Source: an uncultured Methylomirabilota bacterium
GTDB taxonomy: Bacteria; Methylomirabilota; Methylomirabilia; Methylomirabilales; 2-02-FULL-66-22
DNA length: 64,000 bases
Direction: 5' to 3'
Assembly: GCA_963845565.1 (NCBI GenBank)
Contig: CAWJSJ010000002.1
Coordinates: 2,144,001-2,208,000, forward strand
Part shown: one piece after another, positions 18,001-27,000 of the stretch
Position numbering within the stretch: position 1 is the stretch's first letter
Layout: every line of letters starts with the position of its first letter
Made by a program: the position numbers

Positions 18001-21000
18001 TGGACGATAGGGTTCCAGGGGTCCGGGTTGACCCACGAGAGCAATGCCCGCACGATGATGATCCAGTAGTATGCCGTGAGGATGACGTCCAACACCCCGG
18101 CGATGGCACTCAGAAAGTTGGCGAACACGAACATCAGGGTTTTCCCAGCTCTCGCGAGCGGCGTGTGGCCGCCTCGACCGCGTTGATGAGGGCGGCGCGG
18201 ACGGCCCCCTGTTCGAGGGCGTGCAGCCCTGCAATGGTGGTCCCGCCGGGGGACGTGACCATGTCCTTGAGCTCGCCCGGATGCTTTCCGGTGTCCAGGA
18301 CCATGCGGGCAGCGCCCCGCAGGGTCTGGGCGGCGAGGGCCACGGCCGTGTCGCGCGGCAAGCCGACCTTGACCCCGGCGTCGGCGAGCGCCTCGATGAT
18401 CAGGAAGGCATACGCGGGTCCGCTGCCCGAGAGGCCGGTGACACCGTCCATCAGCGCCTCGTCCACGACGACGACCCGCCCCACGGCTTCGAACAGGTCG
18501 CGGGCGGTCTCGAGATCCTGGGGTGTGGCATGGGTCCCTCGGGCGAGAGCGCTGACGCCTTCCAGAACCAGGGCCGGCGTGTTCGGCATCACGCGGATGA
18601 CCCGGACGGGGCGAAGAAAGGCGTCGGCAAGGGTCGTGGTGGAAATGCCCGCGGCAATCGAGATGACGAGCTGCCGGTCGGCGACGACCCTGCGCAGATC
18701 GTCCAGCGCCCGGCTCATGACCTGCGGCTTGACGGCAAGGATCACCGTCTCGGCGTGTCGAGCCGCCTCGGCGTTGTCCGAGGACACGCCGATCCCATAG
18801 GTGGTCTTGAGATAGGCGAGTCGGTCGTCGCGAACGTCGGTGACGAGGATCTCCTCCGGCGGCACACGCCGCGCCGCGAGAATCCCCCGCACCAAAGCCT
18901 CCGCCATGTTGCCGCCACCGATGAACGCCAGCCGCACGCCCTGTCCCATGCCTACCTCCGTCGGGGTTTTATAGCCCCCGCGTCTGCGGAAGTCAAGCTT
19001 TTCGCCCCACCGGGACCGCTTGGGGCTTGCAGTCCGCGCCGGTCTGGGCTATACAGCCGGAGGGAACCACAAGGGATACGAGGAATGTCGATCGAGACGT
19101 GACGGAGGACCGCATGGAAAAACGGCGGTGGGTGAGGCTGCGGGTGCCGGCCTCCACGGCCAACCTCGGAGCGGGGTTTGACGCGCTGGGCATGGCCCTG
19201 GGGTTGTACAACGAGATCGAACTGGAGCGCACGGGAAGCGGGGTGCGCCTGGAAATCGAGGGTGAGGGCGCCGATCGGTTGCAGGCGCTCGGTACGCAGA
19301 ACCTGGTGGCACGGGCGGTCACGAGCACGCTGACGTACCTGGGAGACCCGTCGGACGGGCTTCGGGTGCGCATGCTCAACCGGATCCCGCTGAGTCGCGG
19401 TCTGGGCAGCAGTTCGGCGGCGGTCCTGGGGGGTGCAGCCGCTGCCGCGGCGCTGGCCGGGGTCTCGCTACCTCCGGAAGAACTGCTCGATCTTGCCCTG
19501 CCGCTGGAAGGCCATCCGGACAACATCGCGCCGGCGCTGCTGGGCGGCCTGACGGTGGCGACGCTGGTGGGGGGAAAGGTGCGCTGCGTCAAGCTGCCGG
19601 TTCCCGAGTTGTTGCAGGTCGTCGCCGTGATTCCGGATTTCCGCCTGCCGACCGTCAAGGCCCGGCAGGCCCTGCCCCCGACGGTGCCGCGGAGCGACGC
19701 GATCTTCAACATCGGGCGCGTGGCGCTGTTCCTGGCCGCCATGCAGATGGGCCGCCTGGATCTCTTGCGCGAGGGGGTCAAGGACCGGCTGCACCAGCCC
19801 TACCGGGCGCCCCTGGTCCCCGGCATGCCCGAGGTCCTGGCCGAGGGGGAACGCGCCGGGGCACTGGCATGTTTCCTGAGCGGGGCGGGGCCGACATTGT
19901 TGGCGTTGGCGGCCGGAGATCCCGGGGAGATCGGCGCGCGGATGGTGCGCTGCTGGCGCGAGCAAGCGGGCGTGTCGGCACGGGCGGAAGTTCTGGCGAT
20001 CGACCGGCAGGGCACCCGAGTGGAGGAGGAGCGGTGAGCGCTCGGCCGATGGAGTGATCGGGAGGCTCCCGCGTCACACGTTGAGAGGAAAGTGTACCGT
20101 GAAGGTGGTGCCGAGGCCGACCTCGCTCTTGACGTCGATAGTGCCCTTGTGGTCCTCGACGATCCGGTGGGTGATGGCCATGCCCAAGCCCATCCCCTTC
20201 TCCTTGGTGGTGAAAAAGGGGTCGAAGATGCGGGGCAGGCGATCCGCCGGAATGCCCTGGCCGGTGTCCGTAACCATCACGCGAAGCGCTGGTTCCGGCT
20301 GGGGGTGGGGAGGGCCGGAATTGGAAAAGACCATGGCGGGGACCGTGCCCGTCCGGACGGTCAGGTCGCCGCCCGCGGGCATTGCCTGGATGGCATTCGA
20401 CACCAGATTGCTGAAGCACCGATGCAGCCGCTTCCGGTCGGCCATACAGAAGGGCAGTTCGGGATCGTACTCCTGCGCGAGCTTGACCTTCTGAGTGGCC
20501 ATCTGGTTTTCAAACAGCTCCAGAACCTGCGCGAAGACCTCATTGAGATTGACGGGGTCCCGGTGAATCGCGACGGGGCGGGCCAGTTCCATCATGTCCT
20601 CGATGACGGCCTGGACCCGCTCCAGCTCTCGTGGCACCACTCGGTTGAACTTTTCCCGCACGTCGGGGTCGTCGTGATGCAGCGACATGAGCTGCGAAAA
20701 GATCAGGATGGAGGTCAGGGGATTGCGGATGTCGTGAGCGATCCCGGCCGCCATGGTGCCCAGGGCGGCCAGGCGATCGGCGCGCCGCAGACGATCCTCC
20801 AGGTCGCGCACCCGAGAGAGCTGGGCGATCATCTCATTGAACGCCGCCGACAGTTGTCCCAGCTCATCTCGCGAGGTGATCTCGATCCGATGGTCGAACT
20901 CGCCGCGGCCGACGGCGGCCACGCCGCGCATCAGCGCCTGGATCGGCCGGGCCGTACGCCGCGCCAGAAAAATGGAGCCGACGCTTCCGATCAGCAGCCC

Positions 21001-24000: not shown

Positions 24001-27000
24001 ACACGCGTGATTCGTTGTTGGTCGCTGGTGTGTTTTCGCTGTGTTTCTCGTCGTACGGTGTCTACAGGAAAGCAGGCTTCGTGCCAGGTGTCGGGATTGC
24101 GCGATGTGGGCCGGGAAATGGCCGTGCATGGCGGCGATCTGTGGGTGAAGGTCGCCCCCCAAGAATCCCCGATGCCCAATTCTCTGGGCGAACGACGCAT
24201 CGAAATCGGAGATTATCGCCGCGGAAGGAAGGGAACTGCTTGAATCGGAAGGGGTTTATGTCGATGTCAGATTTTTTGTGCAAGCTGCTACAAAAATCGT
24301 GCAAGCCAGCATACACGAAGAGTGGCTAACTATTCGGAAATAGCTGGGGGCGAGAGTCAATCCGCAAGCGCTGCAGCTTCCACGCGAGCGTATTGCGATG
24401 CAAGCCGAGTACCCGAGCAGCTTCTGTCTGGTTCCACTGCACTTTTTCCAGGATGTTCAGGATATATTGGCGCTCGAAATGGCCCCGTGCCTCCCGCAAA
24501 GACAGTCCTGCCTTCTGGATGTCCTCGATGACATCCCCGCCAAGAATAGAGATTTCCAGGGGCAGCTCCCGCAGTGAGATCGTCTCGCTCTGGGCGAGGG
24601 CCACGGCCCGCTCGATCACGTTTTCCAGTTCGCGCACGTTGCCCGGCCAGTCGTAATGATAGAGAGCGGCCGTCGCCCCGGCGGAGAAACCCTTCACCTT
24701 CCGGACGAACTCCCGATTGTACTTGCCGATGAAGTGCTCCACCAGCAGCGGAATGTCCTCGCGCCGCTGACGCAGCGGCGGGAGAACGATCGGGACCACG
24801 TTCAGCCGGTAATACAGGTCCCCTCGGAACGTACCATCCTCGATCGCCTTCTTCAGGTCCCGGTTGGTCGCGGCGATGACCCGGACATCGATCTTGATGG
24901 TCCGGGTGCCGCCGACCCGCTCCACCTCGCGCTCCTGGAGGGCTCGGAGGATCTTCGCCTGAAGGTCCAGGCGCATGTGGCCGATCTCGTCCAGGAAAAG
25001 ACTCCCCCCGGTCGCGAGCTCGAACTTTCCCACCTTGGTGGCGATGGCCCCGGTGAATGCCCCCTTCTCGTGACCGAAGAGCTCCGACTCCAGGAGTTCC
25101 GCCGGGATGGCGGCGCAGTTGACGGCGACGAAGGGGCGCTGGTTCCGGTTGCTCTGCTGGTGGATGGCGCGGGCCAGCACCTCTTTCCCGGTTCCGCTCT
25201 CGCCGCTCAGCAGCACCGTCGCATTGTTATCGGCGATCCGGGCGACCAGGGTGTAGATCTCTTGCATCCGTTGGTTGCGCCCCACGAGATTCTCGAAGCG
25301 GTGGTCGCGCGCGATCTCGGAGCGCAGGTAGAGGACCTCCTTGACGAGTTCCTGCTTCTCGACCACGCGCTTGATCAGCGAGAGGATGTCGTGGGTGTCG
25401 AAGGGCTTGGTGATGTAGTCGGATGCGCCGAGCTTGATGGCCTCGATGGCGGTCTTCAGGGATTTGACTGCGGTGACGATCACCACCTCGGTCTGTTCGT
25501 TCAGGTCTTTGATCCGGCGCAGGACCTCGATTCCGTCCATGCCCGGCATCCGAATGTCGAGCAGCACGAGATTGACGTCGCGGGTGCTCAGGATGCGGAG
25601 CGCCTCGGGGCCCTGGGCGGCGAAGAGCAGGTCGTAATCCTTGGCGAGGACCGCCTCGAAGGATTCGCGGATGGCGGCGTCATCGTCCACCACCAGGATG
25701 CAGGCCCGGATCGGATGCCCGTCGTGATTCGTCATGCCGTATCCCACCCCCGCGAGGTTCCCTTGGCACACATGCGACCCGGCCCGGCGGCCCGAAAGAC
25801 TGTTCGGGCTAGTAGCCCAAACGACGCAAGAAGTCAAGTCCAAAGGCCCGCCACGCCTTGACAGGGCCGGACAACTGTGCGACCGTTCGGTCCCTCATTA
25901 CGGGAGTCGGAATCAGATGGACCTGCACGAGAAGATCCGCGGCCTCCCCGACGCGCCCGGCGTGTACCTGTTTACCGACGCCCAGGGCGCGCTGCTCTAC
26001 GTGGGCAAGGCGGTCTCCCTGCGAAAGCGAGTGCAGTCGTATTTCACCGAGCGGGATCTCGGCCACGATGCCGAGCGACTGGGCGCCATGGTGGCGCAGA
26101 TCGCCGAGGTGGAGTACCTGCTGACCGCGAACGAGCTGGAGGCGCTGATCCTGGAGAGCAACCTGATCAAGGAGCGGCGCCCCCGCTACAACATTGTCCT
26201 CCGCGACGACAAACATTATCCATTCATCCGGCTGGACCTGCGGGACCCTTTTCCGGCGCTGCAGGTGGTCCGCCGGATCCGTCGCGACGGCGCGCTTTAC
26301 TTCGGACCCTACGTGCCGGCCGGGACGATGTGGAACCTGCTGGCCCTGATCCACCGGACGTTTCCGCTGCGCACGTGCCGCAGCATCGCCGGGCGCACGC
26401 GTTGCCTGGAGTATCACCTGGGGCGTTGCCTGGCCCCCTGCGAGGCCCTGGTGACGGCACAAGAGTACGGCCAGATGGTGCAGGAGGTGCGGTTACTCTT
26501 GGAGGGCCGGGACCGCGAGGTCATCGGGCAGCTGGAGTCGCAGATGCGGACGGCGGCGGAGCGGCTGGAGTTCGAGCGTGCGGCGCGTCTGCGGGATCAG
26601 GTCGCATCGTTGCGCAGGGCCGGGGAGGGGCAACGGGTTCTGTCCGCCCGAGGCGAGAACCAGGACGTCTTCGGCGTGGCCCACGAGGGACGCGAGGCGC
26701 AGGTGCAGCTCCTGGTGGTGCGGGGCGGCAAGCTGATCGGGCGGGACCGCTTTCCCTTCGAGGCCGTGCCGTCGCAGGCGGCCGGCGCGCTCCTGGGGGC
26801 GCTCTTGCCTCAGTACTATCTGGGCGCCCGCGAGATCCCGGGGACGATCCTGACCTCGCACGCGCCGCCGGAGGCGGACCTGCTGGCGGCGATGCTCTCG
26901 GCGCGGGCGGGACAGCCGGTGACGCTCAAGGTGCCGGAGCGAGGCCCCAAGGCGCGGCTGGTGGAGATGGCGGTCGGCACCGCGGAGGCGGTCCTGGCGC

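What a model noticed while it worked through the whole genome (the two positions that open the first line are those of the whole stretch)
20074..25735. Triplicated 44-aa secreted peptide gene under a sigma-54 promoter inside a conserved EBP / peptide / SBP / sCache-kinase [...]
Three 100% identical tandem copies (213-bp unit) of a 44-aa ORF (hydrophobic signal-like N-terminus plus a 24-aa hydrophilic part ending in a Gly run) lie between a sigma-54 enhancer-binding response regulator (g03124) and an orphan family-5 solute-binding protein (g03120, no ABC permease beside it) with an sCache histidine kinase (g03119); a TGGCAC-N5-CTGC sigma-54 promoter precedes the first copy and a strong terminator follows the last. 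I read it as a self-contained peptide feedback circuit: the two-component system drives the peptide gene from the sigma-54 promoter and the exported peptide is sensed back through the solute-binding protein and kinase (an autoinducer- or MgrB-like loop). T [...]
Evidence so far: Call 24: sequence, 3 identical ORFs each with a GGAGG RBS. Call 25: six-frame search of 251 Methylomirabilota genomes, matches in 12 of 20 other genomes of the genus (1-3 copies) and weaker ones across the class (74 of 251 at E<=0.01). Calls 28, 29, 31, 34: in 8 of 8 relatives examined in detail (4 same genus, 4 other families) the order EBP - peptide - SBP_bac_5 - kinase is kept. Calls 138-139: of 80 loci around relatives of the SBP in GTDB species genomes (nearly all labelled Methylomirabilota/Rokubacteria), 52 have a peptide ORF of this family 250-300 nt upstream on the same strand (regular-expression scan; some of the other 28 loci are cut short); consensus of the exported part (P)VIESGT [...]
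(Added by a program. Inside this text positions count along the whole contig: contig position 2,144,001 is position 1 of the stretch shown here. "Call 12" and the like, gene names such as g00115 and contig names such as C1 are that model's own, and its searches are not shown. The text may have been shortened before it was handed on; [...] marks where a part breaks off. The agent that wrote the report below was given it as the finding of a first reader that could run no searches.)

Follow-up and report, generated by a model that had tools for sequence, protein, structure and literature searches.

The report
Glycine-rich peptide signal with its sensor
Three identical tiny genes encode an exported peptide that sits beside its own likely sensor (a peptide-binding protein, a kinase and a sigma-54 activator), which looks like an undescribed peptide signalling loop in two phyla of double-membraned bacteria.

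Summary
Three identical 44-aa ORFs in a 213-nt tandem array lie behind the window's only sigma-54 promoter match, between an NtrC-type activator and an orphan family-5 binding protein plus sCache kinase.

The ORF is translated: pN/pS is 0.24 in the tail at pS about 0.5. It belongs to a large unnamed family. 71 of 74 Methylomirabilota loci seeded with the binding protein carry it.

- **The variable part is the C-terminus.** Residues after an invariant G-x-A vary strongly: 45 distinct strings in 72 peptides. The window's is EGDGGGGE.
- **The module also occurs in Desulfobacterota.** 72 of 80 loci have it, including two cultured strains. There the peptide is only a Sec signal peptide with P-V-L-A at -4 to -1, followed by 5-7 residues, X-GGGG-Z.
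- **The end is fixed within a locus.** Paralogues in one array keep the same end although their leaders are about 50% identical and every end codon differs synonymously. Between loci the end almost never matches.

The binding protein diverges more where the end differs (0.161 against 0.050 excess, 22 independent pairs). The kinase's sensor half does not.

Best reading (0.55): a short oligoglycine peptide is bound by the Dpp-like binding protein and feeds back on its own promoter. Processing, binding, the sign of the feedback and the output are all untested.

The parts
24326..25735 (-). NtrC-type sigma-54 enhancer-binding response regulator (469 aa)
   Evidence: Pfam Response_reg 13-121, Sigma54_activat 150-316, AAA_lid_14 and HTH_8 420-456. 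GAFTGA at residues 225-230. Below every NCBIfam equivalog cut-off; the best match is AtoC at 489 bits against a cut-off of 714.
24265..24303 (-). Two activator-site-like elements 21 nt apart (TGCACGATTTTTGTAGCA and TGCACAAAAAATCTGACA), at -217 and -196 from the -24 element
   Evidence: Read. Each matches 8 of 12 positions of TGCACA-N6-TGTGCA. Relatives carry 9-12 of 12 matches at the same offsets, -215 to -220 and -194 to -199.
24173..24190 (-). Third activator-site-like element (CGCCCAGAGAATTGGGCA), at -104 from the -24 element
   Evidence: Relatives carry a site at -101 to -107.
24071..24086 (-). Sigma-54 promoter TGGCAC-N5-CTGCT
   Evidence: Only match in the window, with 0.08 expected by chance. 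The same motif lies 74-139 nt before the first peptide ATG in 35 of 36 relatives' loci. rpoN is present in the genome.
23816..23950 (-). Peptide gene, copy 1 (promoter-proximal), 44 aa
23603..23737 (-). Peptide gene, copy 2, 44 aa, identical
23390..23524 (-). Peptide gene, copy 3, 44 aa, identical. The proposed mature end is EGDGGGGE, after the invariant G-M-A.
23327..23355 (-). Intrinsic terminator after the array
   Evidence: 13-pair stem with 8 G-C pairs, followed by TTGTTTG.
21567..23195 (-). Orphan periplasmic family-5 (Dpp/Opp-type) solute-binding protein, 542 aa. It is the proposed receptor of the peptide's C-terminal end.
   Evidence: Pfam SBP_bac_5 at 1.5e-88. The nearest solved relatives are peptide and dipeptide binders. 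D438 aligns with DppA Asp408. There is a signal-peptide-like N-terminus. It co-varies with the peptide end.
20074..21570 (-). Sensor histidine kinase, 498 aa: TM, periplasmic sCache_3_2, TM, HAMP, HisKA, HATPase_c
   Evidence: Pfam. The second hydrophobic segment spans residues 184-203.

Best explanation
This is a self-contained peptide signalling module. SHOWN BY SEQUENCE: the activator gene, three conserved activator sites and a sigma-54 promoter precede a short translated ORF with a Sec-type N-terminus, followed by a Dpp-like periplasmic binding protein and a kinase with a periplasmic Cache domain. INFERRED: the phosphorylated activator turns on the peptide genes. The window has three copies on one transcript ending at a terminator, which suggests the peptide is made in excess over the sensor. 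The precursor is exported and cut after the invariant small residues (G-x-A in this phylum, V-L-A in Desulfobacterota). This releases a 4-8-residue oligoglycine peptide, EGDGGGGE in the window. A peptide of that size could cross porins (my assumption). The binding protein takes it up by its free N-terminus, docks on the kinase's Cache domain and changes kinase output, closing a loop on the peptide promoter. The variable first and last residues and the length of the Gly run give each lineage its own signal-receptor pair. The sign of the feedback, whether the signal acts between cells or only within one periplasm, and the physiological output are all unknown.
For: 1. **It is a translated peptide.** Among 22 in-register 45-aa family members, pS is 0.47-0.54. 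pN/pS is 0.24 in the tail and 0.53 in the hydrophobic N-terminus.

2. **Linkage is very tight.**
- 71 of 74 SBP-seeded Methylomirabilota loci have the peptide. The three misses are one IS insertion and two contig ends.
- All 20 extended loci have activator and SBP in this order around the peptide (18 by tblastn, 2 by reading); 18 of 20 also include the kinase, and the other 2 are cut.
- In an even sample of 351 Desulfobacterota genomes, the peptide HMM gives its 7 strong hits in the 7 genomes whose SBP sits beside the activator and kinase. It hits none of the 3 with a lone SBP. An eighth, weak hit lies at a contig end.

3. **Promoter design is conserved.**
- A sigma-54 motif is present in 35 of 36 loci.
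- Activator sites lie at -217, -196 and -104.
- Zero-mismatch TGCACA-N6-TGTGCA sites occur only at the module's own promoter in 4 of 5 genomes searched. The fifth has only a one-mismatch site there.

4. **There is a cleavage-site signature.** In 74 distinct Desulfobacterota peptides the column entropies are P(-4) 0.21, V(-3) 0.77, L(-2) 0.70 and A(-1) 0.10 bits. The next residue jumps to 3.20 bits, followed by Gly x4 and a variable end. G34 and A36 are invariant in the Methylomirabilota alignment.

5. **The end is a specificity element.**
- There are 45 distinct ends among 72 Methylomirabilota peptides and 53 among 79 in Desulfobacterota.
- Between loci, even leaders 90-100% identical share the end in only 4 of 36 pairs. 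At 50-60% leader identity it is 7 of 723 pairs.
- All 10 within-locus paralogue pairs share the end, including 5 pairs with leaders only 50-54% identical.
- In L162 and in one L159 pair, all six end codons differ synonymously. The two L060 paralogues share the end CDGDGGGGW, with two of nine end codons differing synonymously.
- Two genomes that each hold two separate modules have a different end in each module.

6. **The binding protein co-varies with the end.** In 22 independent nearest pairs (activator distance <=0.15), SBP excess divergence is 0.161 when ends differ (n=10) and 0.050 when they are the same (n=12); one-sided Mann-Whitney p=0.0017. At equal activator distance (0.091 and 0.093), SBP distance is 0.284 against 0.167, while the kinase's sensor half is 0.173 against 0.167.

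7. **The pocket is of the peptide type.** D438 aligns with DppA Asp408, which contacts the ligand's charged terminus (PMC3295651, passage read). This Asp is at least 90% conserved in 17 orthologues and invariant in 7 Desulfobacterota orthologues.

8. **Weak expression hint.** In 3 of 4 metatranscriptome runs, contigs on the array have word depth 6.7-69 against about 2-6 on the flanking genes. The tool warns that contig depth is a poor measure of expression.
Against: - There are no data on export, cleavage, binding or feedback.
- In most Methylomirabilota the residue after the hydrophobic core is Pro, and the G-x-A site lies about 17-20 residues further on. That is too far for an ordinary signal-peptidase cut, so a second unidentified protease, or no cut at all, has to be assumed.
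- The extra SBP divergence is spread over the whole gene, residues 1-516. That looks like replacement of whole alleles. Because the peptide's 3' end lies within about 20-260 nt of the SBP gene, part of the co-variation could be simple linkage.
- No second target promoter was found, so a quorum-sensing reading lacks an output.
- The pair numbers are small, and most genomes are MAGs.
Confidence: 0.55

Rival explanations
1. The peptide is an uncleaved small membrane protein (N-in, C-out) that belongs to the sensor complex. Its tethered Gly-rich tail contacts the binding protein or the kinase and tunes signalling, as in MgrB-PhoQ or pilin-PilS feedback.
For: - The N-terminus is long enough to span a membrane.
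- In most Methylomirabilota a Pro follows the hydrophobic core, which blocks a signal-peptidase cut there.
- In the largest Methylomirabilota family the peptide ORF ends about 0-70 nt before the SBP gene, so they are probably one operon with the sensor.
- Desulfobacterota leaders carry a conserved Q or E inside the hydrophobic stretch.
- The co-variation and paralogue results fit a tethered ligand equally well.
Against: - In Desulfobacterota the hydrophobic stretch ends in P-V-L-A with near-invariant A at -1, directly before the most variable residue. This is the pattern of a cleaved signal peptide, not of an anchor.
- The window's genus has V-P-A before Met at the matching place.
- The binding protein keeps the Asp that binds a free alpha-amino group, and a tethered peptide would have none.
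- Repeated gene amplification and a terminator that sets the peptide apart from the sensor suggest a product made in excess.
Confidence: 0.2
2. The peptide is only an output. It is a secreted or envelope product with a function of its own, and the binding protein senses some other ligand such as environmental oligopeptides, muropeptides or a metal complex. The co-variation comes from linkage.
For: - The activator's perfect sites are found only at this promoter, so the peptide is the one visible product of the system.
- Gene amplification points to demand for quantity.
- The excess SBP divergence covers the whole gene, as expected from allele replacement that would carry the adjacent peptide end with it.
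- Family-5 binding proteins bind many ligand classes.
Against: - Linkage does not explain why old paralogues in one array keep the same end through saturated synonymous change, while near-identical leaders in different genomes carry different ends.
- A generic nutrient or stress sensor gives no reason for the SBP to be the fastest-evolving part. Within the genus it is 42-63% identical, against 77-92% for the activator.
- Anionic 5-8-residue Gly peptides have no obvious effector activity (my inference).
Confidence: 0.17
3. The short ORF is a cis-acting leader whose run of Gly codons couples translation to termination (an attenuator) for the downstream SBP-kinase genes, or the repeats encode small RNAs like the LuxO-dependent Qrr RNAs.
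For: There is a run of Gly codons just before the stop and a hairpin terminator after the array. Sigma-54 with an NtrC-type regulator driving multicopy small genes recalls the Qrr RNAs (recalled, not from a call).
Against: - Amino-acid-level purifying selection acts on the tail, with pN/pS 0.24 at pS about 0.5.
- Paralogue ends are identical despite synonymous change at every codon.
- There is a strong RBS at every copy.
- In Desulfobacterota a sigma-70-like TTGACA...TATAAT box follows the terminator before the SBP gene, so the SBP does not depend on read-through.
- A leader peptide needs neither a signal sequence nor a lineage-specific last residue.
Confidence: 0.03

Closest known systems
Phr/CSF-type and other Gram-positive C-terminal peptide pheromones (Phr-Rap, PapR-PlcR, AimP) together with their family-5 binding proteins (OppA, PrgZ)
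   Same: The precursor is 30-45 aa, with a Sec signal sequence, sometimes a conserved pro-region, and a short lineage-specific active part at the extreme C-terminus. Recognition is by an Opp/Dpp-family binding protein; PrgZ is among the solved relatives of this SBP. The pheromone biology is recalled from memory.
   Different: Here the binding protein is paired with a membrane kinase and no ABC permease lies beside it. There is no cytoplasmic RRNPP-type receptor in the module. The hosts are double-membraned phyla. The active part is an oligoglycine. No Pfam or NCBIfam model matches the peptides; AimP_fam scores only E=0.17.
LuxP-LuxQ-LuxO (Vibrio AI-2 pathway) and other binding-protein-dependent kinases (TorT-TorS, CBP-ChiS, AioX-AioS-AioR)
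   Same: A periplasmic binding protein reports to a membrane kinase. In LuxO and AioR the response regulator is a sigma-54 activator driving small or few targets. This is recalled from memory; the LuxO model matches the activator at 369 bits against a cut-off of 800.
   Different: The ligand here is proposed to be the product of the regulated gene itself. The kinase is not a hybrid and there is no phosphorelay protein. The target is a coding gene, not an sRNA. The binding protein belongs to family 5.
ZraP-ZraS-ZraR and CpxP-CpxA feedback
   Same: The two-component system induces a small periplasmic product that acts back on its own sensor, via sigma-54 in the case of ZraR (recalled from memory).
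   Different: ZraP and CpxP are folded proteins of more than 100 aa from a known family. The peptide has no Pfam match. Its functional end is lineage-specific, which a generic stress reporter would not need.
Geopeptide/radical-SAM peptide loci with a sigma-54 regulator, binding protein and kinase (lead from earlier finding e1-4746536, not checked here)
   Same: Short peptide genes sit in a sigma-54-controlled locus with a periplasmic binding protein and a sensor kinase.
   Different: Those peptides sit beside a radical-SAM maturase. No modifying enzyme is present in this module, and no NCBIfam peptide model matches.

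Membership tests
NtrC-type sigma-54 enhancer-binding response regulators | Receiver domain, AAA+ sigma-54 interaction domain with GAFTGA, and a C-terminal HTH_8 | tested here: met
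   Pfam domains. GAFTGA at residues 225-230.
NtrC-type sigma-54 enhancer-binding response regulators | Membership of a named equivalog (AtoC, NtrC, ZraR, LuxO and others) | tested here: not met
   All NCBIfam equivalog scores are below their cut-offs; the best is AtoC at 489 bits against 714.
Sigma-54 promoter | GG at -24 and GC at -12 (TGGCAC-N5-TTGCW), upstream activator sites, and rpoN in the genome | tested here: met
   The motif is conserved in 35 of 36 loci. Transcription from it was not measured.
Family-5 (Dpp/Opp) peptide-binding proteins | SBP_bac_5 domain and the conserved Asp that salt-bridges the ligand's alpha-amino group (DppA Asp408) | tested here: met
   Pfam 1.5e-88. D438 aligns with Asp408 of 1dpp. 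The role of this Asp comes from PMC3295651.
Family-5 (Dpp/Opp) peptide-binding proteins | Encoded with ABC permease and ATPase genes | tested here: not met
   The neighbours are a kinase, the peptide genes, the activator, UvrC and a GHMP kinase. The same holds in the 20 extended loci.
DppA proper (dipeptide binder) | Arg355, which closes the pocket on a dipeptide's carboxylate (role recalled from memory) | tested here: not met
   Arg355 of 1dpp aligns with an Asn of the window protein. The DppA equivalog scores 204 bits against a cut-off of 1005.
Sec signal peptide cleaved by signal peptidase I | Basic n-region, hydrophobic core, helix breaker, small residues at -3 and -1 | tested here: inconclusive
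   The Desulfobacterota forms fit fully, with MKK, a core of about 16 residues and P-V-L-A. The window has V-P-A before Met. Most Methylomirabilota have Pro at the would-be +1 position, and their G-x-A lies 17-20 residues beyond the core. No predictor or experiment was available.
RRNPP/Phr-type peptide signalling | Signal imported by Opp and bound by a cytoplasmic TPR-type receptor encoded beside the peptide gene | tested here: not met
   The module has no such gene. The adjacent proteins are the SBP, the kinase and the sigma-54 activator.
RRNPP/Phr-type peptide signalling | Conserved leader with a short, lineage-specific C-terminal active part | tested here: met
   Entropy profile, diversity counts, and the constraint on paralogues.
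Qrr-type sRNA under LuxO | Non-coding product | tested here: not met
   pN/pS is 0.24-0.53 at pS about 0.5. There is an RBS at each copy.
ZraP/CpxP/Spy periplasmic feedback proteins | Membership of the protein family | tested here: not met
   The peptide has no Pfam or NCBIfam hit.

The most novel reading that the evidence does not exclude
Methylomirabilota and Desulfobacterota use gene-encoded, unmodified oligoglycine peptides (X-Gly(2-5)-Z, 4-8 residues) as diffusible cell-to-cell signals. The peptides are made by plain Sec export and cleavage, and are read in the periplasm by a dedicated Dpp-like binding protein coupled to a kinase and a sigma-54 activator. Signal and receptor diversify together into many 'pherotypes'. 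This would be a linear-peptide quorum-sensing system native to double-membraned bacteria, with recognition based on a side-chain-free Gly spacer that ordinary nutrient peptides cannot mimic.
Probability: 0.35. Interest if true: 0.9.

Novelty: new variant of a known kind. Interest (0 to 1): 0.8.

Why it matters
Ribosomal linear-peptide signalling is regarded as a Gram-positive trait. Double-membraned bacteria are known mainly for small-molecule autoinducers (stated from memory).

This module would give two environmentally abundant and mostly uncultured phyla a compact, genetically readable peptide signal-receptor pair. The profile search returned at least 1594 protein clusters for the long form alone.

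It is directly testable. Two cultured carriers exist. The predicted signals are cheap synthetic penta- to octapeptides. E. coli has sigma-54, according to the control row, so the circuit of SBP, kinase, activator and promoter could be rebuilt there.

The many natural peptide-SBP pairs would also be a ready-made set of orthogonal sensor parts, and a case study of how a Dpp-type pocket gains specificity.

Tried and rejected
- **Complex prediction.** SBP residues 28-542 with peptide residues 15-44, both as alignments. Verdict 'no answer', score 0.00 in two runs, controls not run. This is neither for nor against binding.
- **Search for further activator sites in the window's own genome.** 112 sites reach >=10 of 12 matches, and none forms a convincing site-plus-sigma-54-promoter pair. 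The scan is insensitive, because the window's own sites reach only 8-9 of 12.
- **RNA contigs.** None of the four RNA runs covers 23940-24146 (the 5' leader) apart from a trace of 0.11 in X20. X17 is dominated by contigs on the conserved AAA+ part of the activator, at 90-95% likeness, so probably from other organisms. No conclusion was drawn from these gaps.
- **Database names.** Pfam and NCBIfam have nothing for either peptide form. The ESM Atlas lists only 'hypothetical protein' clusters. The profile search of 5.8 billion proteins returned only 'hypothetical' names among the 120 listed.
- **Literature.** Full-text searches found no paper on such a module. From these I saw search listings only. 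From PMC3295651 I read one passage.
- **The f2 family of this order.** The peptide was not found in 0 of 15 genomes. In 4 genomes inspected, the nearest SBP (39-41% identical) has no peptide, activator or kinase hit beside it, and in the two regions read it follows an aminotransferase-like ORF, judged by eye. The 5-of-5 tally includes unpublished G033, which was not inspected.
- **Ideas considered and dropped:**
  - Attenuator leader or sRNA: see the rival explanations.
  - RTX-like calcium site or metal binding: there is a single Gly run, and no His or Cys in most members.
  - Lipoprotein: Cys at +1 occurs in only 26% of Desulfobacterota forms, and Leu at -2 is atypical for a lipobox.
  - Double-glycine leader: the Gly run is at the C-terminus with nothing after it.
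  - Pilin: there is no G-F-T-L-I-E motif.

Full report
**What is in the window**

On the minus strand, 20074-25735 holds four kinds of genes. Their outer neighbours are a GHMP kinase and UvrC, which are unrelated. In order:
- A response regulator with a sigma-54 AAA+ domain and HTH_8 (24326-25735). It has GAFTGA at residues 225-230.
- Three ORFs of 44 aa at 23816-23950, 23603-23737 and 23390-23524.
- An SBP_bac_5 protein (21567-23195).
- A kinase with two hydrophobic segments around an sCache_3_2 domain, then HAMP, HisKA and HATPase_c (20074-21570).

The ORFs lie in a 213-nt tandem repeat whose first two units are 100% identical. Each ORF has a GGAGG ribosome-binding site.

TGGCACGAAGCCTGCT at 24086-24071 is the only match to the sigma-54 consensus in 64 kb; 0.08 are expected by chance. 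A 13-pair hairpin with a T-run follows the last copy. No terminator-like site was called between copies, so the array is probably one transcript.

The genome has rpoN. It has no other copy of the peptide.

**The ORF is a real, translated, widespread gene**

This tally includes two unpublished genomes, G217 and G075.

*Synteny*
- Of 29 loci seeded with the peptide, 27 show the activator upstream and 27 show the SBP downstream. Three of the four misses are contig ends. L041 truly lacks the activator within 1.5 kb.
- In 20 extended loci the activator and SBP flank the peptide in 20 of 20 (the peptide seen by tblastn in 18 and by reading in L058 and L060). The kinase follows in 18 of 20, and the other two are cut.
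- Starting from the SBP instead, 71 of 74 loci carry the peptide by HMM. L065 has an IS630-like ORF in its place. L119 and L133 are cut.

*Coding evidence and family size*
- Among 22 in-register members, synonymous differences are near saturation (pS 0.47-0.54).
- pN/pS is 0.24 in the tail, 0.53 in the hydrophobic N-terminus and 0.34 in the last five residues.
- This excludes an sRNA or a pure leader ORF.
- A profile search found at least 1594 protein clusters. All named ones among the 120 listed are 'hypothetical', and none has a Pfam domain.

**Promoter design**

TGGC-N7-YTGC lies 74-139 nt before the first ATG in 35 of 36 loci. Some of these loci are the same contig fetched twice. The looser form used occurs about once per 3.8 kb per strand in the window.

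Sites resembling TGCACA-N6-TGTGCA sit at fixed offsets of about -217, -196 and -104 from the -24 element. L025 has three perfect copies. The window has 8-of-12, 8-of-12 and 9-of-12 versions at exactly these offsets.

I searched five genomes for this palindrome. Zero-mismatch matches occur only at the module's own promoter in four of them. The fifth has only a one-mismatch site there. So the peptide promoter is the activator's clearest target, and possibly its only one.

**A short form in a second phylum**

An SBP-seeded locus from a Desulfobacterales MAG (L012) showed the same design with a 30-aa ORF ending in CGGGGP.

*Prevalence in an even sample of 351 Desulfobacterota genomes*
- 10 have a close SBP.
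- In 7 of these, counting L012's own genome, the SBP sits beside the activator and kinase. Each of the 7 has a short peptide ORF behind a sigma-54 motif.
- A peptide HMM gives its strong hits in the same 7 genomes. It hits none of the 3 with a lone SBP. An eighth, weak hit lies at a contig end.

*A wider scan*
- It gave 80 loci, including cultured Desulfogranum marinum DSM 2058 and Desulforhabdus sp. TSK.
- 72 of the 80 have the peptide. Seven misses are cut contigs. L155 is the only real miss.

*What the short form looks like*
- These peptides are 29-36 aa: MKK, about 16 hydrophobic residues, then P-V-L-A, then X-G-G-[GAPSN]-G-Z, sometimes with one more residue.
- Column entropy is 0.10-0.77 bits at -4 to -1, and jumps to 3.20 bits at +1.
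- This is the pattern of a Sec signal peptide cut by signal peptidase I, leaving a 5-7-residue product.
- In these genomes the peptide gene has its own terminator. A sigma-70-like box precedes the SBP gene.

**The hypervariable end in the window's phylum**

In Methylomirabilota, G34 and A36 are invariant. What follows varies in length (4-8 residues) and in the last residue. There are 45 distinct strings in 72 peptides. The 20 residues before this point are nearly constant. The window's string is EGDGGGGE.

It therefore applies only to what looks like a pro-region.

**The end behaves as a specificity element**

*Between Desulfobacterota loci*
- Leaders 90-100% identical share the end in 4 of 36 pairs.
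- Leaders 50-60% identical share it in 7 of 723 pairs.

*Within a locus*
- All 10 paralogue pairs share the end. Five of these pairs have leaders only 50-54% identical.
- L159 and L160 are related genomes, so these are about two independent cases. L060 in Methylomirabilota adds a third.
- In L162 and in one L159 pair, all six end codons differ synonymously. In L060, two of nine do.
- The identity is therefore kept by selection on the peptide, not by gene conversion.

*Two modules in one genome*
- Two genomes hold two separate modules, and each module has a different end.
- These are MAGs, so a second strain cannot be excluded.

**Which partner matches the end**

Within the genus the activator is 77-92% identical to the window's and the kinase is 61-89%. 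The SBP is only 42-63% identical.

| Comparison | Ends differ | Ends the same |
|---|---|---|
| SBP distance minus activator distance, 22 independent nearest pairs from both phyla | 0.161 (n=10) | 0.050 (n=12) |
| Activator distance | 0.091 | 0.093 |
| SBP distance | 0.284 | 0.167 |
| Kinase N-terminal (sensor) half distance | 0.173 | 0.167 |
| Kinase C-terminal half distance | 0.157 | 0.106 |

The one-sided Mann-Whitney p for the first row is 0.0017.

*Caveat on the co-variation*
- The excess is spread over SBP residues 1-516 and vanishes at the last 25 residues.
- This looks like exchange of whole alleles.
- Because the peptide's 3' end adjoins the SBP gene, linkage could produce part of this association.
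- The paralogue result does not depend on linkage.

*The pocket is of the peptide type*
- The nearest solved relatives are peptide and dipeptide binders.
- D438 aligns with Asp408 of E. coli DppA. That residue contacts the ligand's charged terminus (PMC3295651, one passage read).
- The Asp is conserved in both phyla.
- Arg355 of DppA aligns with an Asn. I recall Arg355 as the dipeptide-carboxylate clamp, so a ligand longer than a dipeptide would fit.

**Most likely mechanism**

The activator and sigma-54 drive the peptide gene or genes. The precursor is exported and cut after the conserved small residues. The short oligoglycine peptide is bound by the cognate SBP through its free N-terminus. 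The loaded SBP then acts on the Cache kinase, closing the loop.

The steps stand as follows.
- **Shown by sequence:** the parts, their conservation, translation of the ORF, and the variable-end pattern.
- **Inferred:** activation, cleavage, binding, and signalling through the kinase.
- **Unknown:** the sign of the feedback, whether it acts between or within cells, and the output.

Repeated amplification of the gene fits a product needed in excess. The window has 3 copies, G016 has 3, G019 and G242 have 2 each, and several Desulfobacterota have 2-3.

In 3 of 4 metatranscriptome runs, contigs over the array have word depth 6.7-69, against about 2-6 on the flanking genes. The tool states that contig depth is a poor measure of expression, and collapsed repeats and related strains inflate it. 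I count this as a weak hint only.

**Weak points**

- In most Methylomirabilota a Pro follows the hydrophobic core, and the G-x-A site lies 17-20 residues further out. A second protease is needed, or else the peptide stays tethered. This is rival 1, at 0.2.
- In the largest family of the phylum the peptide ORF ends about 0-70 nt before the SBP gene, so they are probably one operon. That fits an accessory subunit as well as it fits a signal.
- No output promoter was found.
- The complex prediction gave no answer.

**Comparison with known systems**

It works most like Gram-positive C-terminal peptide pheromones read by Opp-family proteins. It is wired like LuxPQ-LuxO or AioXSR. It is a member of none of them. 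It has no RRNPP receptor, no permease, no phosphorelay, no sRNA and no known peptide family.

Five full-text searches found no description of such a module.

It is an AI note, not independent evidence. A second note (e1-4746536) points to radical-SAM peptide loci with similar wiring. I did not check that one.

**Verdict**

It is a new variant of known kinds of system, with high interest, and it is testable in cultured strains.

Noticed in passing
L013 / L042 (G016, same genus), three peptide copies: Two of the three copies read on past the Gly run into 60-61-aa ORFs with unrelated tails; only one ends in EGGGGE. The GGC-rich Gly run may be prone to slippage (real phase variation or a MAG assembly error). 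The SBP gene of this locus is also fragmented.
   Followed up: no
L008 / L065 (SBP-seeded locus): An IS630-like transposase ORF lies directly upstream of the SBP, where the peptide and activator normally sit. The contig starts there.
   Followed up: partly
L010 and L049 (Methylomirabilota): Two SBP genes lie in tandem between the peptide and the kinase. In L049 the second SBP is only a partial match.
   Followed up: no
L049-L061 (largest family of the phylum) and L012 (Desulfobacterales): The kinase is about 635 aa, against 498 aa in the window, with an extra stretch between the sensor and the HisKA domain. In several loci a second kinase and/or a receiver-domain gene follows. This could be the missing output branch.
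   Followed up: no
G603 (genome of L153), contigs C1-C3: The 18-mer TGCACAAATGCTTGCGCA recurs at more than 20 places. It is a dispersed repeat family unrelated to the activator sites, and it inflates one-mismatch counts for the site pattern.
   Followed up: no
window 24297-24318 (minus): A 7-pair hairpin with a T-run lies directly after the activator's stop codon and overlaps the first activator-site-like element.
   Followed up: no
window 27849-30503 (minus): An 884-aa ORF with GAF_2, MshEN and T2SSE domains (a type II/IV secretion ATPase with an N-terminal GAF sensor) lies beyond uvrC.
   Followed up: no
Desulfobacterota peptides, L149-L228: A conserved Gln or Glu sits inside the signal peptide's hydrophobic core (position about 7), and a near-invariant Tyr at -7. 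Both are unusual for a plain signal peptide and are unexplained.
   Followed up: no
L134-L138 (family f2 of the same order): The nearest SBP relative (39-41% identical) has no peptide, activator or kinase hit beside it. In the two loci whose upstream region I read (L134, L138) it follows an aminotransferase-like ORF, judged by eye. The module was not found there.
   Followed up: partly
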